The notes under the pieces: generated by a model
What the model was told of the DNA's origin: nothing
Seen by the model: only the letters and a program-made list of their open reading frames with translations
Databases searched by the model: none
Made by a program: the position numbers and the translations under genes
Shown: positions 8,895-39,616 of the stretch, piece by piece
Layout: each line of letters opens with the position of its first letter
Position numbering within the stretch: the first letter of the stretch is position 1
Assembly (NCBI GenBank): GCA_964429695.1
Contig: CAYSCS010000068.1
Coordinates: forward strand, 15,352-79,351
Direction: 5' to 3'
Source of the DNA: an uncultured Eubacteriales bacterium
GTDB taxonomy: Bacteria; Acidobacteriota; Aminicenantia; Aminicenantales; Aminicenantaceae
DNA: 64,000 nucleotides

Positions 8895-11378
8895 ATGCGA
8901 CTAAATAACTGGAAAATTATGATTAAGAAATTAACTTTCCCCCTTTTGCTTCAATTCTCTCTCCTCTCTCTTTCCCTCCTTGCCTCGGTAAACCTTTCTC
9001 AGACAGCAAGAGACTCCTTTTTCCCTGCCATTGCGGTAAACTCCTCAGGCGAGGTGATGGTAGTCTGGACAGAATGGGAAGGTGACAACAAGATGTACTA
9101 CCGAATCTTCCGCAATGGCCAATGGTCACAGATCCAAAATGCAGGGATTGTGAAAGAAAGGGCCTGGAGCAATCAGCTTTCTGTCGACTCTTACGGAACC
9201 TTTCACTGGACATGCGCGGATGGCTTCTCATCAGAATCAAGAGATATATATTACAGCTATTTTACAGGAAGTGGATGGGCAGCCGCTGAGATGCTTTATC
9301 GAAGCCCCTATAACTCAGCCTGGAACAAGATGGACATAGACACTAATAACGACATCCATGTCGTCTGGTATCACAGCCATATACCCAAAGGTGATGTCTA
9401 CCAATCAGATATTGTGACCATGGCTAAAAAGAGGATGGGCACCTGGCCCACAAGCTTCGAGTATGTCTCAAACAGCCGCACTCTTGAGTCTATCCACCCA
9501 GCAATCGCCGTTTTAAAAGGGAATGTCTATTGTTGCTGGATGGAGGGAGCAAGCCGTAAGCTTTATTTCAATGAGAAAGTAGGAGGGAGATGGGGTACAC
9601 CAAGAGAGATTGATCCCAGAGGATACTATCCCGACATGGAGGTGGATAGTTCAGGTGATCTTCACATCGTCTTCAGCTCAAGAGCGGGAAATATCTATTA
9701 CTTAACAAGGAGCGGAGGAAAATGGAGGACAAAGCAAATCCTCTCAAATGGAGGGGCTCCCCTTCAATTCCCTGACATCCATGAAAAAAATAATATTCTC
9801 GTTGCGGGCTGGGTCCAGGGACAGGGAGGAAACTGGGCGATTTATGGAGCCACAAAGCTTCCAGGTACCCAGTGGTCAGCACCTTTCAAGGTTTCAAACG
9901 CCCCAGGAGGGGAAGAAGGAAATAAACATGTTCAGGTTTTTCTCGATCAAAACAATTATGCTCATTTTGTCTGGGAACAAATAGGGGTTGGCGGAAAACA
10001 TGATATCTTCTATGAGAAGATTCCCATCCGCGGCGTTGAAGGTCCTTATATTGAAGTCGATAATTCTTATCTTACCTTCCAAACAGATGGCTCATACAAC
10101 CCTGAATCTCAGATCTTTAATCTTAGAGCTGGAGGTAAAGGAAGTTTTAATTATTCCTTATCCTCAAACAGAAGCTGGCTTCATGTCTCACCTAAGGAGG
10201 GGCATTCTCAAGGAGAATGGGACACAATCTCCGTTGAAGTGGATATTATAGGACTTGAAGATGGAACATATAATGGAACAATAACTATTACTGCCTCAGA
10301 AGCCTACAATAGCCCCTACGAAGTAATGGTTTCACTGACAATCGGTGAGCCACAGGGGCCGACCTATCTCGAATTAGACACTCAATCGCTTTCATTCTCT
10401 ACTAAAGAAGGGAGAAACCCCGGCTCACAAGCTTTCAAGCTCAGAGCCACTGGGGGCGCAGCAAGCTATAAAATTTCCACTAACAAAGATTGGCTCCATG
10501 TCTCTCCCCAACAAGGAAGCTCCTCAGGAGAATGGGATGAGATCACTGTCTCTGTGGAATGTGAGAACCTCAAGCATGGAACTCGGAATGGAACAATTAT
10601 CATCGAATCTGAAAAGGCGCAGAATAGCCCCCTTCATATAAGTGTAACTCTGGTGATCGAGAAAAGAGAGCTCCCCTCCATCCAGCTCAGCAGGACGTCC
10701 CTCTATTTCTGGGCCTATGCAAAAGGCGATAACCCTGAACCAAAGACATTTCTCATCAGGAACGGAGGGGCAAAGACTCTCGAGTATGAATTAGAGACAA
10801 ACAAAGAATGGCTTAAACTCTCGCCAAAAAAGGGAAGCTCAAGCGGAGAATGGGATACGATAACTGTCTCTGTAGAGATCTCATCTTTAAATGTGAACAA
10901 TCATACAGGAAAAATCACCATCAGAGCTCAGGGTGCAGATAACAGCCCCCTCTGGGTAAATCTCCAGCTTGAAATCATGCTCCCCCCAAATCCCTATCCT
11001 CCACTTAAAGTCAAGGTGACTAAAATCAACCATGAAGGCCTGATGATAAAAGAATATAAGAACAAAATCGAGTGGGAAGAAAACCCAAAAAATGATGGGC
11101 TTTTTGCAATCGAAAAATACAGAATCTACAGAAAAGACACTTCAGCCCCAGACTCGCCTTTTCTCTATCTGAATGAAGTGCAGGCAAACACCTTCATTTA
11201 TTTTGACGGAGGCTTCTCAACAAAGGCTGAAAGAAATAAATATGCCTATTCAGTTACCTGTTTAAGTTCTGATGGAAAAGAAAGCTTTAGGTCAGAATCT
11301 ATTGATGGGGAAGAAACCCAAGACGAGCCTCCAAAAGAAATAAATAAGAGGAAAGAAGCTTTCCCTCGCAGAAAATAA
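8895..11378 (+). CDS. secreted multidomain protein: signal peptide, beta-propeller-like region (sialidase/BNR_2-like), three BACON-like Ig-fold repeats, FN3-like C-terminal domain
   Basis: SD AAAGGAG precedes the ATG. Hydrophobic signal LTFPLLLQFSLLSLSLLASV. A blade-like motif (P-x-I-A-V-[DN]-x-x-G-x-[IV]-H-[IV]-V-W ... I-Y-Y ... G-x-W) recurs six to seven times. Three ~104-aa repeats carry W-L-[HK]-[VL]-S-P..G.S.GEWD.I.V.VE and NSP. The C-terminal segment (PYPPLKVKV...YRIYRKD...) is FN3-like. Confidence 0.6.
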   Translation: MRLNNWKIMIKKLTFPLLLQFSLLSLSLLASVNLSQTARDSFFPAIAVNSSGEVMVVWTEWEGDNKMYYRIFRNGQWSQIQNAGIVKERAWSNQLSVDSYGTFHWTCADGFSSESRDIYYSYFTGSGWAAAEMLYRSPYNSAWNKMDIDTNNDIHVVWYHSHIPKGDVYQSDIVTMAKKRMGTWPTSFEYVSNSRTLESIHPAIAVLKGNVYCCWMEGASRKLYFNEKVGGRWGTPREIDPRGYYPDMEVDSSGDLHIVFSSRAGNIYYLTRSGGKWRTKQILSNGGAPLQFPDIHEKNNILVAGWVQGQGGNWAIYGATKLPGTQWSAPFKVSNAPGGEEGNKHVQVFLDQNNYAHFVWEQIGVGGKHDIFYEKIPIRGVEGPYIEVDNSYLTFQTDGSYNPESQIFNLRAGGKGSFNYSLSSNRSWLHVSPKEGHSQGEWDTISVEVDIIGLEDGTYNGTITITASEAYNSPYEVMVSLTIGEPQGPTYLELDTQSLSFSTKEGRNPGSQAFKLRATGGAASYKISTNKDWLHVSPQQGSSSGEWDEITVSVECENLKHGTRNGTIIIESEKAQNSPLHISVTLVIEKRELPSIQLSRTSLYFWAYAKGDNPEPKTFLIRNGGAKTLEYELETNKEWLKLSPKKGSSSGEWDTITVSVEISSLNVNNHTGKITIRAQGADNSPLWVNLQLEIMLPPNPYPPLKVKVTKINHEGLMIKEYKNKIEWEENPKNDGLFAIEKYRIYRKDTSAPDSPFLYLNEVQANTFIYFDGGFSTKAERNKYAYSVTCLSSDGKESFRSESIDGEETQDEPPKEINKRKEAFPRRK
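10041..10976 (+). repeat. three tandem ~104-codon BACON-like domain repeats inside the 8895-11378 gene
   Basis: Repeat units start near 10041 (PYIEVDNSYLTF...), 10359 (PTYLELDTQSLSF...) and 10669 (LPSIQLSRTSLYF...). Conserved cores are SWLHVSPKEGHSQGEWDTISV, DWLHVSPQQGSSSGEWDEITV and EWLKLSPKKGSSSGEWDTITV. Confidence 0.75.
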
Positions 11379-11603
11379 AATTTGATTTATTATCTAAATC
11401 TATTTATTCCCTCTCTTCTTAAAACCCTTACTCAAAATTTAAAAATTTTTTTTTAAGCTCATTTCTGAACCTAATCCAAAAAATTTTTTCGATTTCCTTT
11501 TATTTTTATTACATGAATTAGCTTAATAATTTAATTGCAAAACGAGCTTGAAGCTTTTAATCATCTAAACTTGAAAAACAACGATTCATTCCCTGTCCTT
11601 GGT

Positions 11604-11632
11604 TTGACTCACTTTTTTGCCTGTGATATACA
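11604..11632 (+). promoter_or_regulatory. predicted sigma-70-type promoter (TTGACT / 17 nt / TGaTATACA) for the 11687 gene
   Basis: -35 at 11604-11609 and -10 at 11627-11632 with an extended TG; 55-nt leader containing SD AAGGAAG. Confidence 0.5.
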
Positions 11633-11686
11633 GGAAAATCACAAAATACTTGAATCAAATTGAAAGCAAAAAAGGAAGTAAAAATT

Positions 11687-14215
11687 ATGCATCTTCTTAA
11701 AAAATATTTTAGTATTCCCATCGAAAAAATAATATTTATTTTGACACTTTTTACCTATCTTTTCTTCATTTTTGCTTTCTTCTCACCTTCGCTACCCAGA
11801 CTCGGTATCTCCTTGCGAGGAGCAAGAGAAGAGTTGTTTTTCCTTCTCCTCTTTCTCTCTTTTCTTTTTTGCTTTCTTAAAAGAAAAAAACTACTTGTGG
11901 CCTTGAAGAAGAAGAAACTAAAAATCGTATCCCTCACCTTTCTCATCATCTCCCTTACCCTACTACTTACTCGACTCCCTTACCTAATCAATGATTTCAG
12001 CCTCTTAAACGCTGACAAATCAGTCACCCTCCTCATGGTTAAGAATATTGCAGAAGGAAAAAGCTTCCCTCTCTACTTTTATGGCCAACTCTACCAGGGA
12101 AGCTTGAATGCCTATCTTACTGCTCTAATCTTTTTTCTCATCCCCTCGTTGAAGATTTCCGTTCTTCTAATAAACATCATCTTTTTCTCCCTGTTTATCC
12201 TCTTTTCCTCCCTTCTCCTTCGTCGGATTACGGATTCAACCTCTTATTTCTATCCTGTTCTCATCCTTTGCCTCCCTCTTTCTGGGTTAGTTTTTTTTTC
12301 GAATGATGAAATAAGGGGATTTTCAGTAGTCGTCTTTTTTGAAATTCTTCTCATTTATCTTGCCTACAGAATCATTTTCGACTCACGTGATTATCATTTC
12401 TCAGTCGGCATGGTCACAGGAGTCCTCTTCTGGCTCTACCAGCCCTCTCTTTCCACAATCCTTCCCATCTATGCGGGAATATTTTTTTCTGAGCTCCGCA
12501 GGAGCCCTCTGCGAAAGTCTCTCTCCAAGGGTATTCTTGCCTTAACAGGGTTTATCGCTGGAAGCTTTCCCCATCTTTTGGGAGAAATTAATAACGAGTT
12601 TACAAACACCAAGGTTCTCTTCTTTTCAGGAGATTTTCCTGCCCATATAAAATCGATGAAGCTCTCTTCCTTACTGTCTGCTCTCAAAGCCTTGCTCTTT
12701 GATTTAGATTCGCAAAGAATCATCTCCCTCTTTTTCATCCTAATTTTCTTTGCAACCATTATTATTTGTTTATGTTTATTCATTAAGAAAAAAGAGACGA
12801 AAAAAATCTTCCTCCCAGCCCTCATGGCAGCAAATCTCTTACTCCTCCTCCTTTCCATGTATCCTCCCGTTCCTCGTTACATCGTTCATTACCGCTTTTT
12901 TTCGTTTTATCCTCTTTTGATCTGCTCAACATTCTTCATGGAATTTAAAATATTCTCAAGAAAAAGATTGAAATTTGCCTTTATCATCTTTTTTGCTTTT
13001 TTCTCTGGATGGAAATCTGTGAAAAATTATCCCATGCTCAGAGAGGCTCATTTCAAGAATAAAAAGGACATCTGCGAACTAAAAGAAGGAAGAGAAAACC
13101 TTATCCTGGGTAATTACTGGGATATGATGAAATACCTTCCTTTCATGGAAGACAAACTCCTCATCTCAACCCCTTCTGAAGTCAGAATCGACGGAGTTTT
13201 TCCTTATGCCAAGTACCTTCCCCTCGGCTTTAAGCTCGGAGAATTCTGGGAGAAAGAAAGTAGAGCTTTTCTGGTGCCAAGGAAGAAAGAGGCTTCGAGC
13301 GAAGAATTTCTCAGGGATTTAGGAATTTCCTTCGCCAAGAAAGAATTTTCTTCTGGACGTTATGCTCTTTATTCGAAATTCTCAAGAGAAATCTCACCTT
13401 ACCTCCTCGTGCTTCTCAATTCTGACCTCAAGAAAAGATGGGAAGGAGGAAAGAGGCCAAATTTCATCTATTTCAAAAATAAACTCCCCTCCCTTCCCGA
13501 GCTAAAGGTAAGGGAGGGGAACCTAATCCTCAATCTTCCAGAATGGGAAGACCTTCCTTCTCAAAGCAGGGGAGCTGAGTTTTTTAAGGATTGGCGGTAT
13601 TGCTTAAAGACAGAGGAAGAAAAGCTAAGCTTCCCTCTCAATCTAAAATCAAGAATAACAGCTTATTCATATCCCCAGCACATTTCACTCCAAGGAAATA
13701 AATACAAAGCCTTCATTAATTTTCTCGATATTCCTATTCTCGAGGCTGGAGAGGTCGAAATTAAGGGGAATTCACCTCAAGCGAAGTTAATCATATCTCG
13801 ACTAAGAGACGCCCTAACCTTCTTCCCCATCTGGGGAAAAGAGAGGAAACCCCGAATTGGAGTCCCCGTAGAAGGGCTTAAACTCGAGGTTGTTAACCCT
13901 TCCGTCGTCTCCATTGAGCTTCGTATTTTTTCCTTTTTTAACTTCGACTCATCCCTCTGGACAAACTTCTATCAGCAGACTCTTCATGTGAATGGGGAAA
14001 AAATCCCGCTTAAATATGGAGAAAACCGGATTCTTAATAAGCTTCACCAAGAAAGAGTAATTAAGTTGAACACAGAATTTAAAACTCTGCTTTATGCTCT
14101 CGATTCCAGAGGAAATGTCACCTTCCCCAATTCTGGGGCAATACTCGAAAGCATTATCCTCCATGAAAAAGGGCAAAGTTACATTCTGAATCCATTTTTA
14201 TCTCCGCTTGAGTGA
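11687..14215 (+). CDS. polytopic membrane protein, GT-C-fold glycosyltransferase-like (ArnT/PMT-like) with a ~400-aa soluble C-terminal domain
   Basis: About a dozen hydrophobic helices over the first ~440 aa. The first loop (LNADKSVTLLMVKNIAEGKSFPLYFYGQLYQGSLNAYL) resembles the ArnT/PMT loop-1 region. ATG 11687 with an SD is preferred over TTG 11660. Confidence 0.5.
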   Translation: MHLLKKYFSIPIEKIIFILTLFTYLFFIFAFFSPSLPRLGISLRGAREELFFLLLFLSFLFCFLKRKKLLVALKKKKLKIVSLTFLIISLTLLLTRLPYLINDFSLLNADKSVTLLMVKNIAEGKSFPLYFYGQLYQGSLNAYLTALIFFLIPSLKISVLLINIIFFSLFILFSSLLLRRITDSTSYFYPVLILCLPLSGLVFFSNDEIRGFSVVVFFEILLIYLAYRIIFDSRDYHFSVGMVTGVLFWLYQPSLSTILPIYAGIFFSELRRSPLRKSLSKGILALTGFIAGSFPHLLGEINNEFTNTKVLFFSGDFPAHIKSMKLSSLLSALKALLFDLDSQRIISLFFILIFFATIIICLCLFIKKKETKKIFLPALMAANLLLLLLSMYPPVPRYIVHYRFFSFYPLLICSTFFMEFKIFSRKRLKFAFIIFFAFFSGWKSVKNYPMLREAHFKNKKDICELKEGRENLILGNYWDMMKYLPFMEDKLLISTPSEVRIDGVFPYAKYLPLGFKLGEFWEKESRAFLVPRKKEASSEEFLRDLGISFAKKEFSSGRYALYSKFSREISPYLLVLLNSDLKKRWEGGKRPNFIYFKNKLPSLPELKVREGNLILNLPEWEDLPSQSRGAEFFKDWRYCLKTEEEKLSFPLNLKSRITAYSYPQHISLQGNKYKAFINFLDIPILEAGEVEIKGNSPQAKLIISRLRDALTFFPIWGKERKPRIGVPVEGLKLEVVNPSVVSIELRIFSFFNFDSSLWTNFYQQTLHVNGEKIPLKYGENRILNKLHQERVIKLNTEFKTLLYALDSRGNVTFPNSGAILESIILHEKGQSYILNPFLSPLE

Positions 14216-25304: not shown

Positions 25305-25326
25305 GGAGAATGAAAAGAGAAAGAAA

Positions 25327-30798: not shown

Positions 30799-30804
30799 CC
30801 TGCT

Positions 30805-31143: not shown

Positions 31144-31172
31144 TTTACTTACTTAAGCGCATTAGCTATAAT
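31144..31172 (+). promoter_or_regulatory. predicted sigma-70-type promoter (TTTACT / 17 nt / TATAAT) 8 nt from ATG 31181
   Basis: Perfect TATAAT at 31167-31172; -35 matches 4 of 6; no SD before the ATG. Confidence 0.4.
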
Positions 31173-31180
31173 TTAAAAAA

Positions 31181-34629: not shown

Positions 34630-34660
34630 ACGTCCTAAATTTTGAATGGAGGTCAAGAAA

Positions 34661-36460
34661 ATGAAAGGATGGAAAAAATCACTTATGATTTCAATAATAT
34701 TAATTTTAATTTCTTCCAGCCTCCATGGTTCAAGAAACATATCTCGCAGTCAAGCAGGAAGCGGAGCTCCAGCTGTTGCGGTGAACAAGGATGGAGTAGT
34801 GCTTGTAGTGTGGGTTGAAGATGTAAACAAGGATGAAAATGCTGGAACTCTCTTTTATAGCGTTTATAAAAATAATGAATGGACAGACCCGAGAAATCTC
34901 GGAATCACTCTCTACTTAGCATGGACGCCACAACTCGATGTTGATGCCCAAGGCAATTTTCATCTTGCTTATGCCGATGGTGCATCAAGACTCAATAGAG
35001 AAGTGTATCACTGCGTCTATAACCCTCAGTCAGGATGGGGGAAATCTTCGATGATCTGGCTCAGCCCTGAAAACTCAGCTTGGCATAAAATAGATGTCGA
35101 GGAAGATAGAGTTTATATTGTCTGGTTCCATGAACATGCAGGAATATATGAAGGGTCAGATATTGTCATGCAATCCAAAAGAATAGATGATTCTTCATGG
35201 CCAAGCCTTTATGAAAGGCTCTCTTATACTGCCCAAGCCTTAAGCATACATCCTGCTTTTAAAGTAAAAAATAACATAGTGCACGCTGTGTGGATGGAAG
35301 GTTCACCTCTTCATGCGCCCTGGAGACTCTTCTACAAGGAGGCAGAAAGAGGGTCTAACTGGATGACAGTTCCTCATGTAGAGATATCTTCCCTTGGGTA
35401 TTATCCTGAGCTCGAAATAGATGACAAGGGTAATATTCATGTTGTTTATTCCAACCGTACAGGAAACTTTTTTTATCGAAAAAAGGTTGCTCAAGGTGGA
35501 TGGAAACCCGTTGAGATAATATCAAATAGATATGCTCCACTCCAGTTTGGAGATATTAGATACAACAACAATGTGCTTGTTGCTGTTTGGGTTCAAACAG
35601 AGCTACAAGGAACATCTGTCTATTACTCAAAGAAAAGCGTTGATGGGAAATGGGATATTCCAACTCAAATCGAACAGGGACATGATGCCTTTCTTCCCAA
35701 GCTATGGCTTGATGACAATGGGTATGCCCATTTTGTATGGAAAGATAGAGGAGAGATTTTCTATGAAAAAATCTCTATCCCGATTCCTGACCCCTTCTTA
35801 AGAATCAACCCTGAATCTCTTTCTTTCACAGTTGAGGGAGAAAATCCGGAACCTGGTACCCTTTCAGTAAAAAACATAGGAGAGAAGCCATTAAGTTATA
35901 GAGTTCAGGTCGATCAAACCTGGTTGAATGTGGCGCCAGGATCTGGAAGATTGGAGAAAGACGAAGAAGATGTACTCCAGTGTACAGTGGATGCAATCGA
36001 ACTTGATGAGGGAACTTACACAGGACGTATAGAGGTCTCCAGTACCCAAGCTATAAATAGCCCACAATATGTGAATGTAACTTTAGAAGTCCTTGCTCCG
36101 CCCATATATCCGCCTTTAAATTTTAAAGGAGAATTATTAGAAAATAAGGCTTTATTCTTCCGTGAATACCTCCACCATCTTAGTTGGGAGCCCAATCCCC
36201 TAAACCGTGATATTGAGCATTATCGATTATATGAGATTGACGGTGTCAACCGAATATTACTTGAAGAGTTCTCTTCCTCGACGTTTGAATTCACACGCAG
36301 AAACATAGATCCTTCCAAAACATATACTTATGAACTTTGGGCGGTGGATAAAAAGGGGCGCATGAGTAACGAACCTGCTACACTCGAAATGAGCGGCTCC
36401 TTAAGCGTAACTTTAAGCAAAGAAAAATCTAGTTCATCTGGAAGTCAAAAAGGAAATTAA
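34661..36460 (+). CDS. secreted paralogue of 8895-11378: signal peptide, beta-propeller-like region, one BACON-like repeat, FN3-like domain
   Basis: Same blade motifs (APAVAVNKDGVVLVVWVE, GNFHLAYADG, DRVYIVWFHEH, GNIHVVYSNRTGNFFY, NNVLVAVWVQ). One BACON-like unit (TWLNVAPGSG...GTYTGRIEVSS...NSPQYVNVTLEV). ATG 34661 is preferred because GGAGG lies 8 nt upstream; the track start is 34646. Confidence 0.6.
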   Translation: MKGWKKSLMISIILILISSSLHGSRNISRSQAGSGAPAVAVNKDGVVLVVWVEDVNKDENAGTLFYSVYKNNEWTDPRNLGITLYLAWTPQLDVDAQGNFHLAYADGASRLNREVYHCVYNPQSGWGKSSMIWLSPENSAWHKIDVEEDRVYIVWFHEHAGIYEGSDIVMQSKRIDDSSWPSLYERLSYTAQALSIHPAFKVKNNIVHAVWMEGSPLHAPWRLFYKEAERGSNWMTVPHVEISSLGYYPELEIDDKGNIHVVYSNRTGNFFYRKKVAQGGWKPVEIISNRYAPLQFGDIRYNNNVLVAVWVQTELQGTSVYYSKKSVDGKWDIPTQIEQGHDAFLPKLWLDDNGYAHFVWKDRGEIFYEKISIPIPDPFLRINPESLSFTVEGENPEPGTLSVKNIGEKPLSYRVQVDQTWLNVAPGSGRLEKDEEDVLQCTVDAIELDEGTYTGRIEVSSTQAINSPQYVNVTLEVLAPPIYPPLNFKGELLENKALFFREYLHHLSWEPNPLNRDIEHYRLYEIDGVNRILLEEFSSSTFEFTRRNIDPSKTYTYELWAVDKKGRMSNEPATLEMSGSLSVTLSKEKSSSSGSQKGN

Positions 36461-36575
36461 CAGAGAAGGATAATTTTTTTTGACTAGCCTAGCCAAGAAA
36501 TGTTCGTTACCGATCTAAGTTATCTCGAGATTAAAATAATTTGAAGGATGATATTTTTATCTATTAACCTTGGAG

Positions 36576-37103
36576 ATGGGAGCTCTATCCTCAATAATAC
36601 TTATTCTTCTCTCCCTTCTCACTTACTCTGCAGGTAAAGTTGGAAGAGAGAGAAATAGCGACGAAGTCAAGACAAAAATCTTCGATTTGATCATACTTAT
36701 CCTCATCTGGTCTTTAGGAATATACGCAGGAACAAGGTTCGACTTAAAAAGATGGGTCTTACTTCTTATTTTTACCATCATCTCTTTTTTTCTGGGTCTA
36801 CTAACAACTTCATTCAGAAAAAAGGAAAAGACTCAAAGAAACGCTTCTCATATCCAAAAAAAAAATTCTCAAAACATCTCTTCCTCTCTCTGGAATTCAG
36901 GGAAGAGATTTTTTAAAAGAGTGGGTGTATTTCAGACAAGGATCATTCTCTCTTTTTTCTATTTCATCTTCGTCTCTCCCCTCGCTCTTGGCGTAAAACT
37001 CTTATCTGACCCTTTAAAAATTAAACAGCATAAGGAAATTTCTTTCTGGTCAAAGAGAAGAGAAAAAAGAAATGATTTCGATGAATTCAGGAGACAGTTC
37101 TAA
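36576..37103 (+). CDS. small membrane protein, SxtJ-like (companion of carbamoyltransferases)
   Basis: Three to four hydrophobic helices. The C-terminal half (FFKRVGVFQTRIILSFFYFIFVSPLALGVKLLSDPLKIK...SFWSKR) resembles my recollection of the SxtJ-family consensus. Abuts the carbamoyltransferase ATG. Confidence 0.45.
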   Translation: MGALSSIILILLSLLTYSAGKVGRERNSDEVKTKIFDLIILILIWSLGIYAGTRFDLKRWVLLLIFTIISFFLGLLTTSFRKKEKTQRNASHIQKKNSQNISSSLWNSGKRFFKRVGVFQTRIILSFFYFIFVSPLALGVKLLSDPLKIKQHKEISFWSKRREKRNDFDEFRRQF

Positions 37104-38878
37104 TGTATATCCTAGGCATCTCTTGCTATTATCATGACGCAGCAGCGGCTTTGATCAAAGATGGCAAGCTCGTAGCAGCAGCCGAGGAAGAGAGATTCAC
37201 GAGGATAAAACACGATTTTGATTTCCCGCAGAATGCCATCCAATTCTGCCTTGACCATGAAGGGATAACCGCAAAGGAGCTCGACTACGTCGTTTTCTAT
37301 GAAAAGCCCTTTCAGAAATTCGAAAGAATCTTGATGACAATATTTCAGAGTTTTCCAAGGTCATGGAGTACATTTAAGGAAGCCATGATTACCTGGCTTG
37401 CTGATAAGCTCTGGATAAAGAACACCCTAAGGGAGAGGATAGGCGTCGAAGAAAAGAAAATACTCTTCAGTGAGCATCATCTATCGCATGCTGCGAGCGC
37501 CTTTTATCCTTCTCCCTTCGAGGAAGCAGCTATACTTACCGTCGATGGAGTTGGGGAGTGGACCACCGCCACCATGGGAATCGGAAAAGGAAATGAAATC
37601 AAGCTTCTCAAGGAAATAAAATTCCCGCATTCACTCGGTCTCCTATACAGCGCCTTTACGGCTTTCCTTGGTTTCAAGGTAAATGAAGGAGAATACAAAG
37701 TGATGGGGATGGCACCTTATGGAATTCCCCGCTATGTGGATAAGATTTATGACCATCTCATAAAGGTTTCTGAGGATGGTTCATTCTGGCTCAACATGGA
37801 TTATTTCTCCTATCATTATTCTGATGAAAAGACATTCAACTCTAAGTTTGAATCAATTTTTGGAAAACCTAGAAATCCAGAGATGAATTTTTTCACCTCA
37901 AAGACAAGATTCCCTTCTTATTTTGGAAAAAAGCCTCATGATTTTGAGGAACTCTGTCGCAAGAATGAACACTATGCTGATATTGCTGCCAGTATTCAGC
38001 TAGTGACAGAAGAAGTTTTATTGAAACTCGCAAATCATCTCTACCGAGAAACAGGCTTAAAAAATCTCTGTATCGCCGGCGGGGTTGGGCTGAATTCAAA
38101 AGCAAACGGAAGAATTCTCATTGAGACCCCCTTTGAGAATCTCTTCGTCCAGCCTTCAGCCGGAGATGGAGGAGGTGCGCCAGGGGCTGCGTGGTATGCC
38201 TACCATGGACTTCTTGGAAAGCCGCGAAATTTCATTCTGGAACATGCCTATTGGGGAAAAGCGTATTCAGAAGAGGAAATACTAATTTTTCTCAAAAAAA
38301 ATAACATATCTCATGAATATTTCTCTGATGAAGAAAAACTTCTGGAGAGGATAGTTGAATATCTTCTCCAGGGAAAGGTCGTCGGCTGGTTTCAAGGAAG
38401 GTTTGAATGGGGGCCAAGAGCCCTGGGCAATAGGAGTCTCCTCGCAGACCCAAGAAGTGAAGAGATGAAGGATCTCGTGAATCTGAAGATAAAATTCAGA
38501 GAACCTTTCAGGCCTTTTGCCCCTGTAATACTGGAAGAAAAAGCAAAAGATTTTTTTCATGGAGATGGAGTCGAAAAACAATTCCCAGCTAGATACATGC
38601 TCCTTATCCTCCCCCTCAAAGAAGAAAAGGCCCATCTTATAAACGCGGTAAATCACATGGGTACGGGAAGGCTACAGACAATTAGAGAAGAATGGAACCC
38701 CCGTTATTATAGAGTGGTAAAAAAATTTGAAGAAGCAACGGGTCTGCCCGTTCTTCTCAACACTTCTTTTAACCTTAAAGGTGAACCAATAGTGAATTCA
38801 CCCTCAAACGCATTCGAAACCTTCGCCAAGAGCGGAATAGATGCTTTAGTCTTGGAAAATTTTCTCGTCACAAAATAG
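37103..38878 (+). CDS. carbamoyltransferase (NodU/CmcH family)
   Basis: N-terminus MYILGISCYYHDAAAALIKDGKLVAAAEEERFTRIKHD, and C-terminal NTSFNLKGEPIV. Confidence 0.9.
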   Translation: MYILGISCYYHDAAAALIKDGKLVAAAEEERFTRIKHDFDFPQNAIQFCLDHEGITAKELDYVVFYEKPFQKFERILMTIFQSFPRSWSTFKEAMITWLADKLWIKNTLRERIGVEEKKILFSEHHLSHAASAFYPSPFEEAAILTVDGVGEWTTATMGIGKGNEIKLLKEIKFPHSLGLLYSAFTAFLGFKVNEGEYKVMGMAPYGIPRYVDKIYDHLIKVSEDGSFWLNMDYFSYHYSDEKTFNSKFESIFGKPRNPEMNFFTSKTRFPSYFGKKPHDFEELCRKNEHYADIAASIQLVTEEVLLKLANHLYRETGLKNLCIAGGVGLNSKANGRILIETPFENLFVQPSAGDGGGAPGAAWYAYHGLLGKPRNFILEHAYWGKAYSEEEILIFLKKNNISHEYFSDEEKLLERIVEYLLQGKVVGWFQGRFEWGPRALGNRSLLADPRSEEMKDLVNLKIKFREPFRPFAPVILEEKAKDFFHGDGVEKQFPARYMLLILPLKEEKAHLINAVNHMGTGRLQTIREEWNPRYYRVVKKFEEATGLPVLLNTSFNLKGEPIVNSPSNAFETFAKSGIDALVLENFLVTK

Positions 38879-38896
38879 AATAAAAAAGAGGAAATT

Positions 38897-39076
38897 ATGA
38901 AAACAAGAAAGAGTATAAAATTTAAGCTGGAAATATTCAGAGAGTTGTTAGTCTTTCTCTGGCAGAAGAAACTCTGGTGGCTGATCCCGATGATAATCGT
39001 CTTGATTCTTTTTGGGTTGCTCTTAATCTATACTCAGAGTTCTGTGGTTGCTCCCTTCATCTATACTCTCTTTTAG
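38897..39076 (+). CDS. 59-aa membrane peptide, DUF5989/SxtK-like (not in the ORF track because it is under 60 aa)
   Basis: ATG 38897 with SD AAGAGGAAA upstream. Sequence MKTRKSIKFKLEIFRELLVFLWQKKLWWLIPMIIVLILFGLLLIYTQSSVVAPFIYTLF*. Basic N-terminus plus one TM, in the conserved position after a carbamoyltransferase. Confidence 0.55.
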   Translation: MKTRKSIKFKLEIFRELLVFLWQKKLWWLIPMIIVLILFGLLLIYTQSSVVAPFIYTLF

Positions 39077-39098
39077 GGAGTGGAAAGAAGAATAAGAA

Positions 39099-39227
39099 AT
39101 GAAGAAGTGGTTATTAAGAATTTTTCTTTTGCTCTTCGGCTTCCTTTTGGCTTTCCTTATTTTAGAACTTGGAACCAGGTTTTTCTGGACGAAGTTAAGC
39201 GAACTCGACCATTCTTCATATAGATAG
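39099..39227 (+). pseudogene. 43-codon ORF resembling only the signal-anchor start of a larger exported enzyme (possible truncated remnant)
   Basis: MKKWLLRIFLLLFGFLLAFLILELGTRFFWTKLSELDHSSYR*. It stops 2 nt before the convergent cupin gene end. Confidence 0.3.
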
Positions 39228-39229
39228 CT

Positions 39230-39616
39230 TCATTCCCTACCGTAATCGTCCTTGAGCCTTACAATGTCAGCTTCATCTGAATCCCCAATCCAGATCTCCA
39301 TCACCCTTGCCTCCTTGCTCCCTATGCAGCGGAGTCTGTGAGCAGATTTTCTGGGAATGAAAATTTCTTCGTTTACCCTTGCTCTCCAGGTTCTCTCCCC
39401 CAGGGTAATTTCCAAACCCTCATCAAGCACAACCCAGAACTCACTTCGGCGTTGGTGATATTGAAGAGAAAGAGCCTCACCTGGCTTTACAGAAATGATT
39501 TTTATCGACCTTGCCTTTTGATGAGGATATGAGCGGAATTTTCCCCACGGCCTTCTATCCTCGATTATCCCCTCTCTAAAGCTTCTTTCCTCTTCCTCAG
39601 TTCCTCTTTCTACCAT
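39230..39616 (-). CDS. cupin-domain protein, mannose-6-phosphate isomerase type II C-terminal-domain-like
   Basis: WGKFRSY...IKIISVKPGEALSLQYHQRRSEFWVVLDG-like core and EIFIPRKSAHRL, typical of PMI/ManC cupin modules. Confidence 0.7.
   Translation of the reverse strand: MVERGTEEEERSFREGIIEDRRPWGKFRSYPHQKARSIKIISVKPGEALSLQYHQRRSEFWVVLDEGLEITLGERTWRARVNEEIFIPRKSAHRLRCIGSKEARVMEIWIGDSDEADIVRLKDDYGRE

What the first reader, a model, noticed from the sequence alone, without database searches (positions are those of the whole stretch)
8895..39616. About 30 kb envelope-decoration island with GT-C enzymes, Thr-type sulfatase-fold proteins and secreted propeller-BACON proteins, but no polysaccharide export or polymerisation genes
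About 27 genes lie between rsmA (ends 8628) and the ssb/tol-pal block (starts 39724). Nearly all are membrane-anchored or signal-peptide proteins facing the periplasm or the outer surface.

Envelope-facing components:
- two GT-C-fold polytopic glycosyltransferase-like proteins (11687-14215, 20656-22773)
- a Dpm1/Ppm1-like GT2 (19723-20421)
- three sulfatase-fold proteins with Thr at the nucleophile position (14225-16057, 29458-30798, 31181-33085)
- a TolB-like propeller, a Tat-signal amidohydrolase and an AMIN-beta-barrel OMP
- two secreted propeller-BACON-FN3 paralogues

Cytoplasmic tailoring enzymes:
- a B12-radical SAM and a SPASM/twitch radical SAM
- a hexapeptide acyltransferase
- a GMC flavoenzyme plus an SDR
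- a carbamoyltransferase with SxtJ/SxtK-like partners
- a cupin PMI

Absent from the window are Wzx/Wzy/Wzz, any ABC or Wza-type exporter, a WecA/WbaP-type initiating transferase and an O-antigen ligase. This does not fit a classical O-antigen, capsule or EPS locus.

It fits better a system that makes and tailors a polyprenyl-phosphate monosaccharide donor, then decorates an already exported acceptor (protein, LPS or peptidoglycan) from the periplasmic side. I know of no characterised system with this composition.

Three component types are duplicated (propeller-BACON x2, GT-C x2, sulfatase-fold x3), which suggests parallel modules.
Basis: partly seen in the sequence, partly recalled or inferred. 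Interest (0 to 1): 0.72.

Follow-up and report, generated by a model that had tools for sequence, protein, structure and literature searches.

The report
Conserved Aminicenantes envelope glycan-decoration locus
This 30 kb stretch is a real, conserved gene set of the uncultured bacterial group Aminicenantes that most likely builds a modified lipid-linked sugar and attaches it to an unidentified cell-envelope target from the outside of the inner membrane; the core mechanism is already known, but several partner proteins are new.

Summary
There are 22 genes rather than about 27, and 14 of 22 are envelope-targeted.

The window comes from a Candidatus Aminicenantes (Acidobacteriota) genome. The region is not a horizontally acquired island. 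It is a chromosomal locus that recurs, with shuffled gene order and different flanks, in more than 15 other Aminicenantes genomes at 30-77% protein identity. One genome holds 19 of the 22 genes on one contig.

The 851-aa protein with no Pfam match has a GT-C fold, shown by a confident AlphaFold2 model and Foldseek. The three sulfatase-fold proteins carry Thr in place of formylglycine and lack the motif Arg. The secreted BACON proteins start with a 7-bladed propeller resembling lectins and sialidases. No Wzx/Wzy/ABC/initiating-transferase genes occur in the window or in any sister locus examined.

The core logic is the known three-component extracytoplasmic glycosylation scheme (Gtr, Arn, GacIJKL, mycobacterial GT-C routes): a GT2 polyprenyl-phosphate-sugar synthase plus GT-C transferases. 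Sister loci carry GacJ-type DUF2304 and Arn-like formyltransferase/deacetylase genes.

The new elements are the propeller-BACON proteins, the AMIN-barrel OMP, the Thr-type ectoenzymes and the radical-SAM/GMC/carbamoyl tailoring set.

The acceptor and the sugar are unknown. I rate it a new variant of a known kind, of moderate interest.

The parts
8895..11378 (+). BACON1: secreted protein with a signal peptide, a propeller, three BACON domains, an FN3-like domain and a basic tail (827 aa)
   Evidence: BACON_2 has three matched stretches and BACON two. It is 36% identical to BACON2 (P0078). Orthologues at 41-55% identity occur in 10 genomes.
11660..14215 (+). GT-C2: polytopic GT-C-fold glycosyltransferase with a roughly 370-aa periplasmic C-terminal part (alpha/beta domain plus beta-sandwich). 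The likely start is the ATG at 11687.
   Evidence: No Pfam, NCBIfam or PDB sequence hit. AlphaFold2 pLDDT 86.6. The top 20 Foldseek hits are all GT-C: PglB, AglB, STT3, ArnT, EmbA/B, ALG12/9, AftA/D. D110 is invariant in the first loop. Distant relatives carry PMT_2. Orthologues occur in genomes B and C.
14225..16057 (-). TM-anchored sulfatase-fold ectoenzyme 1, built as one TM, a spacer of about 140 aa, then an alkaline-phosphatase-superfamily domain. Thr nucleophile (PWTLPSH); SDHGE metal motif kept.
   Evidence: Sulfatase 118 bits. Thr aligns to the formylglycine position and His to the Arg. Orthologues at 57-59% identity in genomes B and C.
16156..17220 (-). Outer-membrane protein: signal peptide, AMIN-like domain, acidic linker, C-terminal beta-barrel
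   Evidence: OMP_b-brl 23.7 bits and AMIN E 0.05. Orthologues have clear AMIN hits. Present in 11/11 BACON2 loci and 14/25 GT-C loci.
17424..18188 (+). Hexapeptide-repeat (WcaF/WbbJ-like) acyltransferase with one N-terminal TM helix
   Evidence: Hexapep 50.7 bits. Best NCBIfam hits are WcaF-family. 63-70% identical in 8 genomes.
18303..19721 (+). B12-binding radical SAM enzyme, ending 2 nt before the GT2 start codon
   Evidence: B12-binding plus Radical_SAM. Best solved relative is AprD4, a sugar diol-dehydratase (E 3e-27). The rSAM-GT2-GT-C trio is conserved at 65-74% identity in L020/L036, L026, L028 and L029.
19723..20421 (+). GT2 glycosyltransferase, the candidate polyprenyl-phosphate-sugar synthase
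   Evidence: Glycos_transf_2 117 bits. Best NCBIfam similarities are AglJ, PpgS, PgfS, ArnC and Dol-P-hexose transferase, all below cut-off. A GT2 lies within 10 kb of the GT-C in 16/25 loci.
20656..22773 (-). GT-C glycosyltransferase (PMT_2/GT39-GT83-like) with a C-terminal periplasmic domain of about 250 aa
   Evidence: PMT_2 38.3 bits, above the cut-off. D28, D43 and D63 are invariant in the first loop. The family was found only in Aminicenantes-type MAGs. No PDB sequence relative.
23351..23737 (+). 128-aa protein of unknown family, overlapping the start of the GMC gene
   Evidence: No family hit. A 125-135-aa gene holds the same position in genomes B and C, at 42-47% identity.
23730..25304 (+). 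GMC-type FAD oxidoreductase
   Evidence: GMC_oxred_C 31.7 bits plus an N-terminal FAD motif. Weak PDB hits to glucose dehydrogenase, paromomycin oxidase and pyranose oxidase. 55-61% identical in genomes B and C.
25264..26193 (+). SDR/epimerase-family NAD(P) enzyme, the partner of the GMC enzyme
   Evidence: Epimerase 36.4 bits. 51-53% identical and adjacent to the GMC gene in genomes B and C.
26220..27197 (-). Radical SAM enzyme with a SPASM/twitch domain
   Evidence: Radical_SAM plus SPASM. The only solved relative is BtrN, an aminocyclitol dehydrogenase (E 3e-13). 59-68% identical in L020, L023, L034, L035 and L037.
27173..28432 (-). SDF-family Na+/dicarboxylate or amino-acid symporter, overlapping the rSAM-SPASM gene by 25 nt
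   Evidence: SDF 439 bits. The same SDF to rSAM-SPASM pair, at 77% and 59% identity, sits inside the L023 locus.
28515..29465 (-). PD40 (TolB-C-terminal-like) beta-propeller lipoprotein (lipobox LGTC)
   Evidence: PD40 86 bits. 50-59% identical in L001, L002, L009 and L032-L035.
29458..30798 (-). Sulfatase-fold lipoprotein 2 (lipobox IKSC), Thr nucleophile (PKTSAS)
   Evidence: Sulfatase 169 bits. Thr column. 55-64% identical in L007, L009 and L023.
31181..33085 (+). TM-anchored sulfatase-fold ectoenzyme 3, Thr nucleophile (SATWPA). A divergent paralogue in the lowest-GC part of the locus.
   Evidence: Sulfatase 120 bits. Only 28-30% identical to any protein in other loci. GC is 0.32 at 30-32 kb.
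33112..34506 (+). Tat-signal amidohydrolase, probably a lipoprotein
   Evidence: Amidohydro_1 89.9 bits. RRDF motif. 52-63% identical in 6 loci.
34646..36460 (+). BACON2: secreted protein with a 7-bladed propeller, one BACON domain and an FN3-like C-terminal domain (604 aa)
   Evidence: BACON_2 46 bits. AlphaFold2 pLDDT 90.8 with seven 4-stranded blades. Foldseek hits are the M. viridifaciens sialidase (E 2e-17) and Photorhabdus PLL/PHL 7-blade lectins (TM 0.65-0.75). About 100 clusters; those that carry a source name are labelled Aminicenantes or Acidobacteriota.
36570..37103 (+). 177-aa four-TM protein (SxtJ-position partner) whose stop overlaps the carbamoyltransferase start
   Evidence: No family hit. 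A 174-176-aa gene holds the same position in L018, L019, L020 and L006, at 36-40% identity.
37103..38878 (+). NodU/CmcH-family carbamoyltransferase
   Evidence: Carbam_trans_N 303 bits and Carbam_trans_C 222 bits. 74-76% identical in four genomes, where it usually lies between the two BACON genes.
38897..39076 (+). 59-aa single-TM DUF5989 protein
   Evidence: DUF5989 71.5 bits. Same position in L018, L019 and L020.
39230..39616 (-). Cupin-type mannose-6-phosphate isomerase domain protein. Membership of the locus is doubtful.
   Evidence: MannoseP_isomer 80.6 bits. It lies downstream of ssb on the tol-pal strand. It was not found in any related locus.

Best explanation
Window 8895-39076 is a vertically inherited envelope-glycan locus specific to Aminicenantes. 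It works by the lipid-linked-monosaccharide/GT-C route.

**Cytoplasmic steps (inferred).** A Dpm1/ArnC/GacI-like GT2 (19723-20421) loads a sugar onto polyprenyl phosphate at the cytoplasmic face. The sugar is tailored either before loading or while lipid-linked. The candidate tailoring enzymes are:
- the B12-radical SAM enzyme that abuts the GT2 gene (2-nt gap)
- the GMC oxidase plus SDR pair, giving oxidation then reduction, i.e. epimerisation in the manner of DprE1/E2
- the BtrN-like twitch radical SAM
- the membrane-tethered hexapeptide acyltransferase
- the carbamoyltransferase, held at the membrane by its two small TM partners

**Periplasmic steps (inferred).** After flipping by an unidentified protein, two distantly related GT-C enzymes (11660-14215 and 20656-22773) transfer the sugar to an already exported envelope acceptor. 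Each GT-C has invariant first-loop aspartates and a large periplasmic beta-rich domain that probably binds that acceptor.

**Extracytoplasmic partners (roles inferred).**
- Three Thr-nucleophile sulfatase-fold enzymes that add or remove phosphoester substituents
- A Tat amidohydrolase (de-acylation)
- A PD40 lipoprotein
- An AMIN-barrel OMP
- Two secreted proteins, each a 7-bladed lectin/sialidase-like propeller followed by BACON and FN3-like domains, which bind or trim the product at the cell surface

**Shown here:** gene content, folds, motifs and conserved co-location.

**Inferred:** every biochemical step, the sugar and the acceptor.
For: **Co-location across shuffled orders and different flanks**
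- With BACON2 as anchor: OMP 11/11, GT-C 10/11, BACON1 8/11, hexapeptide transferase 7/11.
- With the GT-C as anchor, among 25 GTDB species representatives: GT2 16/25, OMP 14/25, BACON 10/25.
- 19 of 22 genes lie on one contig of GCA_964400735.1.
- A second near-complete copy is in GCA_964584935.1.
- The SDF to rSAM-SPASM pair is conserved in L023.

**The GT-C and GT2 enzymes**
- GT-C fold of the 851-aa protein; its distant relatives carry PMT_2.
- PMT_2 in the 705-aa protein, with invariant D28, D43 and D63.
- The GT2 is most similar to polyprenyl-phosphate-sugar synthases: AglJ, PpgS, PgfS, ArnC.

**Sister loci carry signature genes of this route next to the orthologous GT-C**
- DUF2304 (GacJ/Rv3632, an activator of GacI/PpgS; bioRxiv 10.1101/180810)
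- Formyl_trans_N and Polysacc_deac_1, which are ArnA-N-like and ArnD-like
- A UbiA prenyl-phosphate transferase
- PglF-like dehydratase and DegT
- So the tailoring cassette varies around a constant GT2/GT-C/acyltransferase core, as in antigen-diversifying loci.

**The tailoring enzymes' nearest solved relatives act on sugars or cyclitols**
- AprD4, BtrN, pyranose/glucose oxidoreductases and paromomycin oxidase.

**Precedents and absences**
- C-terminal CBM-like domains on GT-C enzymes that bind the acceptor have precedent in GT136, EmbC and AftD (PMC11127046).
- No Wzx/Wzy/ABC/initiating-transferase genes in the window or in eight sister gene lists.
Against: - No flippase (GtrA, ArnE/F, Wzx, MATE) was found in the window or in sister loci.
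- DUF2304 is absent from the window.
- The window GT2 has no predicted TM segment and reaches no curated family cut-off.
- The window lacks nucleotide-sugar precursor genes that would name the sugar.
- Some GT-C homologues sit away from the locus (L021, L025), so the link is frequent but not obligatory.
- The roles given to the propeller-BACON, OMP, PD40, amidohydrolase and Thr-type enzymes rest only on co-location and fold.
- All evidence comes from MAGs of one lineage, so shared ancestry inflates the counts. The differing flanks and gene orders argue against pure inertia.
Confidence: 0.55

Rival explanations
1. Protein O- or N-glycosylation system. The GT-C enzymes glycosylate secreted proteins, first of all the two propeller-BACON proteins encoded beside them. 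They would use the lipid-linked sugar as actinobacterial or eukaryotic PMTs do, or act as an oligosaccharyltransferase does.
For: - The 705-aa enzyme hits the PMT_2 (protein mannosyltransferase) model.
- The best structural matches of GT-C2 are the oligosaccharyltransferases PglB, AglB and STT3.
- GT-C2 lies directly downstream of a BACON gene, on the same strand, in the window and in L003.
- 49 of 54 propeller-BACON proteins carry N-x-S/T two to three residues after the signal peptide.
Against: - GT-C2 lacks a conserved WWDxG motif. The equivalent site reads GNYW[D/H/N] and the Asp is not conserved.
- GT-C2 was seen in only 3 of the loci examined, while the N-x-S/T motif is nearly universal.
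- The motif sits in the first propeller strand and is probably structural.
- There are no Ser/Thr-rich linkers in the BACON proteins.
- PMT_2 also covers ArnT-like lipid and glycan transferases.
Confidence: 0.15
2. Arn-like modification of lipid A or the LPS core. The GT-C adds a tailored (amino)sugar, and the Thr-type enzymes add phospho-substituents, directly to LPS, changing surface charge.
For: - Sister loci place Formyl_trans_N, GT2, Polysacc_deac_1 and the GT-C together, the same family set as ArnA-N/ArnC/ArnD/ArnT.
- Automatic source names read 'ArnT family' or '4-amino-4-deoxy-L-arabinose transferase-like'.
- The Thr-type proteins give weak NCBIfam hits to EptA/CptA.
Against: - There is no sequence-level relation to solved ArnT, even with family profiles.
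- No ArnT model appears among the NCBIfam hits.
- ArnT lacks the 250-370-aa periplasmic beta-rich domains seen here.
- The window has no formyltransferase, deformylase or ArnB-like aminotransferase.
- The Thr-type enzymes have one TM helix, not the five-TM lipid-handling domain of EptA/LtaS.
Confidence: 0.12
3. Self-contained periplasmic assembly of a lipoglycan or polysaccharide by GT-C enzymes, as in mycobacterial arabinan, LM and LAM. The polymer would be built outside the cytoplasm from polyprenyl-phosphate monosaccharide donors, so no Wzx/Wzy or ABC exporter is needed.
For: - Two to three GT-C enzymes per locus, each with a large periplasmic domain.
- UbiA next to the GT-C in genome B.
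- An FAD oxidase plus SDR pair, analogous to DprE1/E2.
- Complete absence of classical export or polymerisation genes in every locus examined.
- Emb and Aft enzymes are among the structural matches.
Against: - The GMC enzyme is not homologous to DprE1.
- UbiA is absent from the window.
- No primer-forming enzyme was identified.
- Processivity cannot be read from sequence.
- Two GT-Cs are few for a polymer.
Confidence: 0.1
4. Degradative (PUL-like) locus. The propeller-BACON proteins, sulfatase-fold enzymes and amidohydrolase would break down an external sulfated or phosphorylated glycan, and the glycosyltransferase genes would be unrelated neighbours.
For: - BACON domains and sialidase-like propellers are common in glycan-degrading enzymes.
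- Faint BNR_4 hits.
- One sister-locus paralogue has a canonical CVASR sulfatase motif.
Against: - There is no TonB-dependent receptor, SusD, glycoside-hydrolase family or sugar importer in any locus.
- 13 of 14 sulfatase-fold proteins cannot form formylglycine.
- The GT-C, GT2 and acyltransferase genes co-travel with the secreted proteins through many rearrangements.
Confidence: 0.05
5. Aminoglycoside-like natural-product gene cluster embedded among unrelated envelope genes.
For: The nearest solved relatives of three cytoplasmic enzymes come from aminoglycoside pathways: AprD4, BtrN and paromomycin oxidase. The carbamoyltransferase family includes antibiotic-tailoring enzymes.
Against: - No cyclitol synthase, aminotransferase or resistance gene is present in the window.
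- These enzymes are interleaved with, and co-conserved with, GT-C and envelope genes.
- The locus is a core, vertically inherited feature next to rsmA.
Confidence: 0.03

Closest known systems
Three-component extracytoplasmic glycosylation systems (GtrA/GtrB/GtrV; ArnC/ArnE-F/ArnT; streptococcal GacI/GacJ/GacK/GacL; mycobacterial PpgS/Rv3632/Rv3779; the Citrobacter GT136 system)
   Same: - A GT2-type polyprenyl-phosphate-sugar synthase gene lies next to a GT-C transferase.
- The GT-C carries a periplasmic beta-rich, CBM-like domain, as in GT136, EmbC and AftD (PMC11127046).
- Sister loci carry the GacJ/Rv3632-type DUF2304 activator directly beside the GT2 (bioRxiv 10.1101/180810).
- Auxiliary SDR or oxidoreductase genes diversify the donor (PMC11127046).
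- The locus itself has no polymerase or exporter.
   Different: - No recognisable flippase.
- Two or three GT-C enzymes per locus. Neither is close in sequence to any characterised one, and one family has no Pfam model.
- The tailoring set is unusually rich: B12-rSAM, twitch rSAM, GMC plus SDR, and a carbamoyltransferase with two TM partners.
- A fixed retinue of extracytoplasmic proteins (propeller-BACON x2, AMIN-OMP, PD40, amidohydrolase, Thr-type sulfatase-fold enzymes) has no counterpart in the known systems.
- The acceptor is unknown.
GacH-type / LtaS / EptA alkaline-phosphatase-superfamily phosphotransferases that decorate envelope glycans (own knowledge for GacH)
   Same: - Extracytoplasmic sulfatase/AP-fold domain with a Thr nucleophile and retained metal ligands.
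- Encoded beside a GT2/GT-C decoration module.
   Different: - One TM helix or a lipobox instead of a five-TM lipid-donor domain.
- The domain keeps the C-terminal subdomain of true sulfatases (SGSH_C hits) and is closest in sequence to S1 sulfatases and phosphonate monoester hydrolases.
- The two TM-anchored forms have an extra spacer of about 140 aa.
- Hydrolase versus transferase cannot be told.
Mycobacterial decaprenyl-phosphate-arabinose / polyprenyl-phosphate-mannose pathways with Emb/Aft/Pim GT-C enzymes
   Same: - Lipid-linked monosaccharide donors are used outside the cytoplasm by several GT-C enzymes with periplasmic carbohydrate-binding domains.
- A flavoenzyme plus SDR pair could epimerise the donor.
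- UbiA is present in one sister locus.
   Different: - The GMC enzyme is not homologous to DprE1.
- The organism is a diderm acidobacterial lineage.
- There is no evidence of polymer formation.
- UbiA is absent from the window.
Photorhabdus PLL/PHL seven-bladed propeller lectins and the Micromonospora viridifaciens sialidase (propeller, Ig linker, CBM)
   Same: - Predicted 7-bladed propeller superposes on the PLL/PHL lectins (TM 0.65-0.75, rmsd about 4 Angstrom).
- The overall order of propeller then Ig-like then beta-sandwich matches the large sialidase form (E 2e-17).
   Different: - Sequence identity is 10-14%.
- Sialidases have 6 blades, and no Asp-box or BNR model is matched above threshold.
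- The invariant polar residues (D111, R118, N143, S144, H162, D172) are not repeated in every blade. They cluster in blades 2-3, which suggests one site rather than seven lectin sites (inference).

Membership tests
Three-component extracytoplasmic glycosylation system | GT2-family polyprenyl-phosphate-sugar synthase | tested here: inconclusive
   Glycos_transf_2 at 117 bits. The best NCBIfam similarities are polyprenyl-phosphate-sugar synthases (AglJ, PpgS, PgfS, ArnC), but all are far below the curated cut-offs. No TM segment is predicted. The substrate is untestable here.
Three-component extracytoplasmic glycosylation system | Integral-membrane GT-C-fold transferase with acidic residues in the first periplasmic loop | tested here: met
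   For 20656-22773: PMT_2 above the cut-off, with invariant D28, D43 and D63. For 11660-14215: the AlphaFold2 model matches only GT-C structures, and D110 is invariant.
Three-component extracytoplasmic glycosylation system | Dedicated flippase (GtrA, ArnE/F, Wzx-like or MATE) | tested here: not met
   No such Pfam family in any window ORF or in eight sister gene lists. The 177-aa four-TM protein is only a speculative candidate.
Three-component extracytoplasmic glycosylation system | GacJ/Rv3632-type DUF2304 partner of the GT2 (present in a subset of systems) | tested here: not met
   tblastn of two sister-locus DUF2304 proteins finds nothing in the window. It is present next to the GT2 in L002, L016 and L018.
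Three-component extracytoplasmic glycosylation system | An acceptor glycoconjugate made by a separate pathway | not testable with these tools
   Only 64 kb of this genome and 20-kb pieces of the others were available.
ArnT (GT83) lipid A aminoarabinose transferase pathway | Sequence orthology of the GT-C to ArnT | tested here: not met
   phmmer and two family profiles find no ArnT or any other GT-C chain in the PDB. NCBIfam gives only a sub-threshold Agl23-like hit.
ArnT (GT83) lipid A aminoarabinose transferase pathway | ArnA/ArnB/ArnD-type partner genes (formyltransferase-decarboxylase, aminotransferase, deformylase) | tested here: not met
   Absent from the window. Formyl_trans_N and Polysacc_deac_1 are present in sister loci L002 and L018.
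Classical O-antigen / capsule / EPS locus | Initiating phosphoglycosyltransferase plus Wzx/Wzy/Wzz or an ABC-2 exporter, Wza | tested here: not met
   None among the ORFs of roughly 130 aa or longer scanned across the 64 kb or in sister loci.
S1 formylglycine sulfatases | C/S-x-P/A-x-R maturation motif at the nucleophile | tested here: not met
   The three window proteins read T-L-P-S-H, T-S-A-S-I and T-W-P-A-L. Thr aligns to the formylglycine residue of 7oz8 and 4upk.
LtaS / EptA-type phosphotransferases | Thr nucleophile plus a multi-TM (about five helices) N-terminal lipid-donor domain | tested here: not met
   Thr is present, but there is only one TM helix or a lipobox. NCBIfam hits to EptA, CptA and LtaS are 20-50 bits against cut-offs of 400-1250.
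Oligosaccharyltransferases (PglB/AglB/STT3) | Conserved WWDxG motif after the last TM helix | tested here: not met
   The equivalent position reads G-[ND]-[YF]-[WF]-[D/H/N/T/S/A]. The Asp is not conserved, although PglB and AglB are the top fold matches.
GH33 sialidases | Six-bladed propeller with Asp-boxes and the catalytic Arg triad / Tyr-Glu | tested here: inconclusive
   The model has seven blades. No BNR model is matched above threshold, only a faint BNR_4 hit. Residue-level superposition was not available.
Genomic island (horizontally acquired) | tRNA or integrase boundary, compositional break, patchy distribution | tested here: not met
   No tRNA in the window. GC is 0.32-0.45 against 0.41-0.49 in the flanks, without a sharp edge. 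The locus is adjacent to rsmA in L004, L005, L006, L012, L019 and in L040, L042-L047.

The most novel reading that the evidence does not exclude
Aminicenantes build a lineage-specific surface coat without any Wzx/Wzy or ABC machinery.
- GT-C enzymes assemble or decorate an envelope glycan or lipoglycan in the periplasm from a heavily tailored polyprenyl-phosphate sugar (radical-SAM modified, epimerised, acylated, carbamoylated).
- Thr-type 'sulfatase-fold' ectoenzymes add phosphoester substituents.
- Dedicated 7-bladed propeller-BACON proteins recognise this glycan. They are held on the cell by a previously undescribed pairing between their C-terminal FN3-like domain and a small beta-barrel OMP.
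- That domain-plus-barrel pairing also recurs with unrelated cargo proteins in other Aminicenantes (L013, L015).
Probability: 0.15. Interest if true: 0.7.

Novelty: new variant of a known kind. Interest (0 to 1): 0.45.

Why it matters
**What is gained**
- Aminicenantes are abundant, uncultured anaerobes of sediments, aquifers and digesters, and nothing is known about their cell surface.
- This locus is a conserved and probably ancestral feature of the lineage, so it is the best genomic handle on that surface.
- It adds a GT-C family without a Pfam model. There are about 70 full-length representatives, and thousands of more distant PMT_2-type relatives.
- It adds a clade of sulfatase-fold enzymes that have swapped formylglycine for Thr.
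- It adds a lineage-restricted family of propeller-BACON proteins.
- It shows the three-component glycosylation scheme coupled to radical-SAM and carbamoyl tailoring.

**Limits**
- The core mechanism is not new.
- All functional statements are inferences from MAG sequence.

Tried and rejected
- **Exact look-up of the 827-aa protein** found nothing because the recorded gene uses a later start. The family was reached through the 604-aa paralogue instead.
- **Sequence searches of both GT-C proteins and two family profiles against the PDB** gave no GT-C hit. The fold was settled by structure prediction.
- **NCBIfam** gave no hit above a curated cut-off for any of the 20 locus proteins scanned.
- **Literature searches** for Aminicenantes plus BACON, glycosyltransferase or outer membrane, and for DUF5989, returned nothing useful.
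- **rSAM-SPASM as an anaerobic sulfatase-maturing enzyme acting on the Thr-type proteins.** I rejected this as the main reading. The proteins lack the C/S-x-P/A-x-R motif and its Arg. The rSAM's only solved relative is BtrN. No anSME model was among its top 25 NCBIfam hits.
- **GT-C2 as an oligosaccharyltransferase.** Rejected because the WWDxG Asp is not conserved.
- **Horizontally acquired island.** Rejected on rsmA-linked synteny and the lack of mobility markers.
- **PUL-like degradation locus.** Rejected for lack of any uptake or glycoside-hydrolase genes.
- **More distant GT-C2 relatives** (L017, L022) and some GT-C homologues (L021, L025) sit among unrelated genes, so they gave no functional clue.
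Residue-level active-site comparison of the propeller could therefore not be done.

Full report
**1. What is in the sequence**

Between rsmA/ksgA (7816-8628, minus strand) and ssb (39724-40179) I find 22 credible genes in at least seven transcription units on both strands.

- two BACON-domain secreted proteins (8895-11378 and 34646-36460)
- three Sulfatase-family proteins
- an OMP_b-brl barrel with a weak AMIN domain
- a hexapeptide transferase
- a B12-binding radical SAM enzyme
- a GT2
- a PMT_2 GT-C
- a GMC-type flavoenzyme
- an SDR
- a radical SAM/SPASM enzyme
- a PD40 propeller
- a Tat-signal amidohydrolase
- a NodU/CmcH-type carbamoyltransferase, followed by a 59-aa DUF5989 protein (38897-39076, 71.5 bits)
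- a cupin-type mannose-6-phosphate isomerase domain

NCBIfam placed none of these above a curated cut-off.

A simple hydropathy scan, plus reading the N-termini, shows signal peptides, lipoboxes or TM helices in 14 of 22 proteins. The other eight look cytoplasmic.

It lies inside the sulfatase-fold/PD40/rSAM-SPASM operon.

The rest of the window is housekeeping:
- upstream: an lptB-like ABC ATPase, rpoN, hpf, ptsN, hprK, rapZ, EIIA, ptsI
- downstream: ssb, cpoB, pal, tolB, tolA, tolR, tolQ, trkHA, an MrfA-like helicase, uvrA, holB, an ECF sigma factor, NAD kinase, tlyA, dxs, ispA, xseA

It contains no Wzx, Wzy, Wzz, Wza, ABC-2 exporter, WecA/WbaP-type or WaaL-type gene.

**2. Three specific claims checked**

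*Thr-type sulfatase-fold proteins.*
- In HMMER alignments to solved sulfatases, the Thr of PWTLPSH aligns with the formylglycine Ser/Cys, and His aligns with the motif Arg.
- In an alignment of the three window proteins with 11 paralogues and orthologues from related loci, 13 of 14 have Thr at this column. One (L020:2703-4139) has a canonical C-V-A-S-R.
- The SDHGE metal motif is retained, as the sequence shows directly.
- These proteins therefore cannot be formylglycine sulfatases and are more likely phosphoesterases or phosphotransferases.
- Unlike LtaS/EptA, they have one TM helix or a lipobox, not a five-helix lipid-handling domain.

*The 851-aa polytopic protein.*
- It has no Pfam, NCBIfam or PDB sequence hit.
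- With a 23-sequence alignment, AlphaFold2 gave pLDDT 86.6 and pTM 0.84.
- The first 20 Foldseek matches in the PDB are all GT-C enzymes: PglB, AglB, STT3, ArnT, EmbA/B, ALG12, ALG9, AftA, AftD.
- A profile search of 1.84 billion representatives found about 70 full-length relatives and 4179 hits at E<=1e-3. The more distant hits carry PMT_2.
- An Asp (D110) in the loop after the R-L-P helix is invariant.
- The position equivalent to the oligosaccharyltransferase WWDxG motif reads GNYW[D/H/N], and its Asp is not conserved.

*The 705-aa GT-C.*
- It passes the PMT_2 threshold and has invariant D28, D43 and D63 in its first loop.
- Neither the protein nor two family profiles find ArnT or any other GT-C chain in the PDB.
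- It is not a clear ArnT orthologue.
- The two GT-C families are related only at profile level (hhalign probability 91%, 17% identity over 171 columns).

**3. Whose genome, and is this a unit?**

Homologues of the 604-aa propeller-BACON protein number about 100 clusters. Those that carry a source name are labelled Candidatus Aminicenantes, Aminicenantales or Acidobacteriota. They fall into a roughly 600-aa type and a 700-880-aa type. The GT-C family has the same distribution. Several records are titled 'uncultured Eubacteriales' or 'Clostridiales', but they carry the same lineage-specific genes.

Co-location was tested from two independent anchors.
- *BACON2 as anchor, 11 loci, within 10 kb* (gene lists):

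| Gene | Loci |
|---|---|
| AMIN-OMP | 11/11 (directly adjacent in most) |
| 705-aa-type GT-C | 10/11 |
| BACON1 | 8/11 |
| Hexapeptide transferase | 7/11 (63-70% identity) |
| GT2 | 6/11 |
| Amidohydrolase | 6/11 |

- *GT-C as anchor, 25 GTDB species-representative loci*:

| Gene | Loci |
|---|---|
| GT2 | 16/25 |
| OMP | 14/25 |
| Propeller-BACON | 10/25 |
| rsmA | 7/25 |

Near-complete copies in other genomes:
- Genome GCA_964400735.1 carries 19 of the 22 window genes on one contig over about 47 kb, at 42-75% identity and in a different order. These include the B12-rSAM/GT2 pair, the 128-aa/GMC/SDR trio, the rSAM-SPASM and the carbamoyltransferase triad.
- GCA_964584935.1 carries a second near-complete copy.
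- The SDF to rSAM-SPASM pair recurs inside the L023 locus at 77% and 59% identity.
- Only the isomerase at 39230-39616 was never seen in another locus.

Flanking genes differ between genomes: ftsK-rsmA, Rnf/PAS/asparagine synthase, or DUF1015 and others. The set therefore stays together through rearrangement, which argues for functional coupling rather than mere inherited synteny.

The frequent rsmA adjacency, the absence of tRNA or mobility genes and the lack of a sharp GC boundary show that this is an ancestral chromosomal locus, not an acquired island.

The link is not absolute. Some GT-C homologues sit among unrelated genes (L021, L025).

**4. What the parts suggest**

*The GT2.* Its best similarities are to polyprenyl-phosphate-sugar synthases: AglJ, PpgS, PgfS, ArnC and haloarchaeal Dol-P-hexose transferase.

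*Sister loci.* In sister genomes the orthologous hexapeptide-transferase/GT-C block sits with different neighbours:
- A different GT2 (27-30% identity), followed directly by DUF2304, plus Formyl_trans_N, Polysacc_deac_1, TylF, Acetyltransf_6 and GFO_IDH.
- PglF-like dehydratase and DegT.
- A UbiA prenyl-phosphate transferase.

DUF2304 is GacJ. It forms a complex with the GlcNAc-P-undecaprenol synthase GacI and stimulates it, and its mycobacterial homologue Rv3632 does the same for PpgS. The GT-C enzyme GacL then transfers the sugar to the exported rhamnan (bioRxiv 10.1101/180810). Formyltransferase plus GT2 plus deacetylase plus GT-C is the family set of the Arn pathway (own knowledge). UbiA-type synthase plus GT-C with a C-terminal CBM, with an SDR epimerase that changes the donor sugar, is the GT136 system (PMC11127046).

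The locus therefore has a constant GT2/GT-C/acyltransferase core and swappable sugar-tailoring cassettes. That is the pattern expected for a lipid-linked-donor decoration system.

*The window's tailoring cassette.* It is unusual:
- A B12-radical SAM enzyme whose nearest solved relative is the sugar diol-dehydratase AprD4.
- A twitch radical SAM whose only solved relative is the aminocyclitol dehydrogenase BtrN.
- A GMC enzyme weakly related to sugar oxidoreductases, paired with an SDR.
- A carbamoyltransferase bracketed by two small membrane proteins.

*The secreted proteins.*
- The AlphaFold2 model of BACON2 (pLDDT 90.8) shows seven four-stranded blades, a BACON Ig-like domain and an FN3-like domain.
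- Foldseek matches the whole architecture to the large Micromonospora sialidase (E 2e-17). It matches the propeller to the seven-bladed Photorhabdus PLL/PHL lectins (TM 0.65-0.75, rmsd about 4 Angstrom).
- Polar residues invariant across both paralogue types (D111, R118, N143, S144, H162, D172) fall in loops of blades 2-3 on one face rather than repeating in each blade. This suggests one binding or catalytic site (inference).

**5. Most likely mechanism**

I commit to the following, at about 0.55 confidence for the overall logic.
1. A sugar is loaded on polyprenyl phosphate by the GT2.
2. It is tailored by the radical-SAM, GMC/SDR, acyl- and carbamoyl-transferases at the cytoplasmic face.
3. 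It is flipped by a protein not yet identified.
4. It is transferred by the two GT-C enzymes to an already exported envelope acceptor, which their periplasmic beta-rich domains recognise.

The Thr-type ectoenzymes, the amidohydrolase, the PD40 lipoprotein, the AMIN-barrel OMP and the propeller-BACON proteins then act on, bind or anchor the product outside the cytoplasm.

Shown here are the gene content, folds, motifs and conserved co-location. All chemistry is inferred.

The rivals differ mainly in the acceptor:
- secreted proteins, including the BACON proteins themselves (0.15)
- lipid A or the LPS core in an Arn-like manner (0.12)
- a polymer built entirely by the GT-C enzymes, as in mycobacterial arabinan/LAM (0.10)
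- a degradative locus (0.05)
- a natural-product cluster (0.03)

The last two fit poorly.

**6. Comparison with the known, and novelty**

The locus works like a three-component extracytoplasmic glycosylation system. As a member it meets the GT-C criterion. It meets the GT2 criterion only at superfamily level. It fails the flippase criterion, and the window also lacks DUF2304.

It is not an Arn pathway, an OST system, a classical O-antigen/capsule locus or a set of true sulfatases. A defining feature was tested and not met in each case.

I therefore rate it a new variant of a known kind. The new elements are:
- a GT-C family without a Pfam model
- Thr-type sulfatase-fold ectoenzymes with a single anchor
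- the lineage-restricted propeller-BACON proteins with their OMP partner
- the radical-SAM/carbamoyl tailoring set

**7. Verdict**

This is a real, coherent and conserved locus of an uncultured lineage.

Interest is 0.45. It is a useful, testable lead on the unknown cell surface of Aminicenantes, but the central mechanism is already known and every function is inferred from MAG sequence.

Noticed in passing
L013:7970-10856; L015:8399-10927; L014:9152-10294; window 36100-36460 (BACON2 residues 487-590): The FN3-like C-terminal domain of the propeller-BACON proteins (motif W-E/Q-x-N-P-x-N-R-D/N-I ... Y-R-I/L-Y) also ends unrelated secreted proteins in other Aminicenantes: an M6-peptidase-like protein, a DUF5122 propeller and a Sortilin/BNR protein. 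In L013 and L015 the very next gene is a small OMP_b-brl barrel. Together with the near-constant BACON2/AMIN-OMP adjacency, this suggests a cargo-domain plus barrel surface-anchoring pair.
   Followed up: partly
window 26220-28432; L023:1774-3974: An SDF-family symporter gene overlaps a radical SAM/SPASM gene by 25 nt. The same pair, at 77% and 59% identity, sits inside another genome's copy of the locus. A transporter wired to a twitch radical SAM enzyme is unexplained.
   Followed up: partly
window 30000-32000 (gene 31181-33085 and the 383-bp spacer before it): This is the lowest GC of the window (0.32, against about 0.42). The sulfatase-fold gene here is only 28-30% identical to anything in the related loci. 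It is either a fast-evolving or a separately acquired paralogue.
   Followed up: no
window 34730-34750 and 8990-9010 (mature N-termini of BACON2 and BACON1): An N-x-S/T tripeptide lies two to three residues after the predicted signal-peptide cleavage site in 49 of 54 family members of both paralogue types. It is probably part of the first propeller strand, but it is also a potential glycosylation sequon next to a GT-C whose best fold matches are oligosaccharyltransferases.
   Followed up: partly
L020:2703-4139: Among 14 sulfatase-fold proteins of these loci, one has a canonical Cys-type motif (C-V-A-S-R) and may be a true sulfatase. All the others have Thr.
   Followed up: no
L003:14608-16575 and L003:3109-6027: Genome GCA_964400735.1 carries two extra genes in its copy of the locus that are absent from the window. 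One is a third GT-C-like protein (655 aa, weak PMT_2/TMEM260-like hits). The other is a 972-aa protein with no family hit.
   Followed up: no
Record titles of L001, L005, L006, L009, L025, L027, L030 and others: Many third-party MAG assemblies titled 'uncultured Eubacteriales bacterium' or 'Clostridiales bacterium' carry these Aminicenantes-restricted genes in Aminicenantes-type synteny. Their taxonomic labels are probably wrong.
   Followed up: no
window 211-7790: There is a complete rpoN-linked regulatory block in this candidate-phylum genome: an lptB-like ABC ATPase, rpoN, hpf, ptsN (EIIA-Ntr), hprK, rapZ, EIIA-Man and ptsI.
   Followed up: no
window 8895-11378 and 34646-36460: Both propeller domains give a sub-threshold hit to NCBIfam NF053835, 'PDIAV motif-containing lipoprotein' (about 30 bits, cut-off 90). 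The blades here start with P-A/D-I-A-V-like motifs, so the two families may share a propeller repeat type.
   Followed up: no
window 23351-23737: A 128-aa protein with no family assignment overlaps the start of the GMC flavoenzyme gene. It is conserved in the same position in three genomes and may be a small subunit of the flavoenzyme.
   Followed up: no
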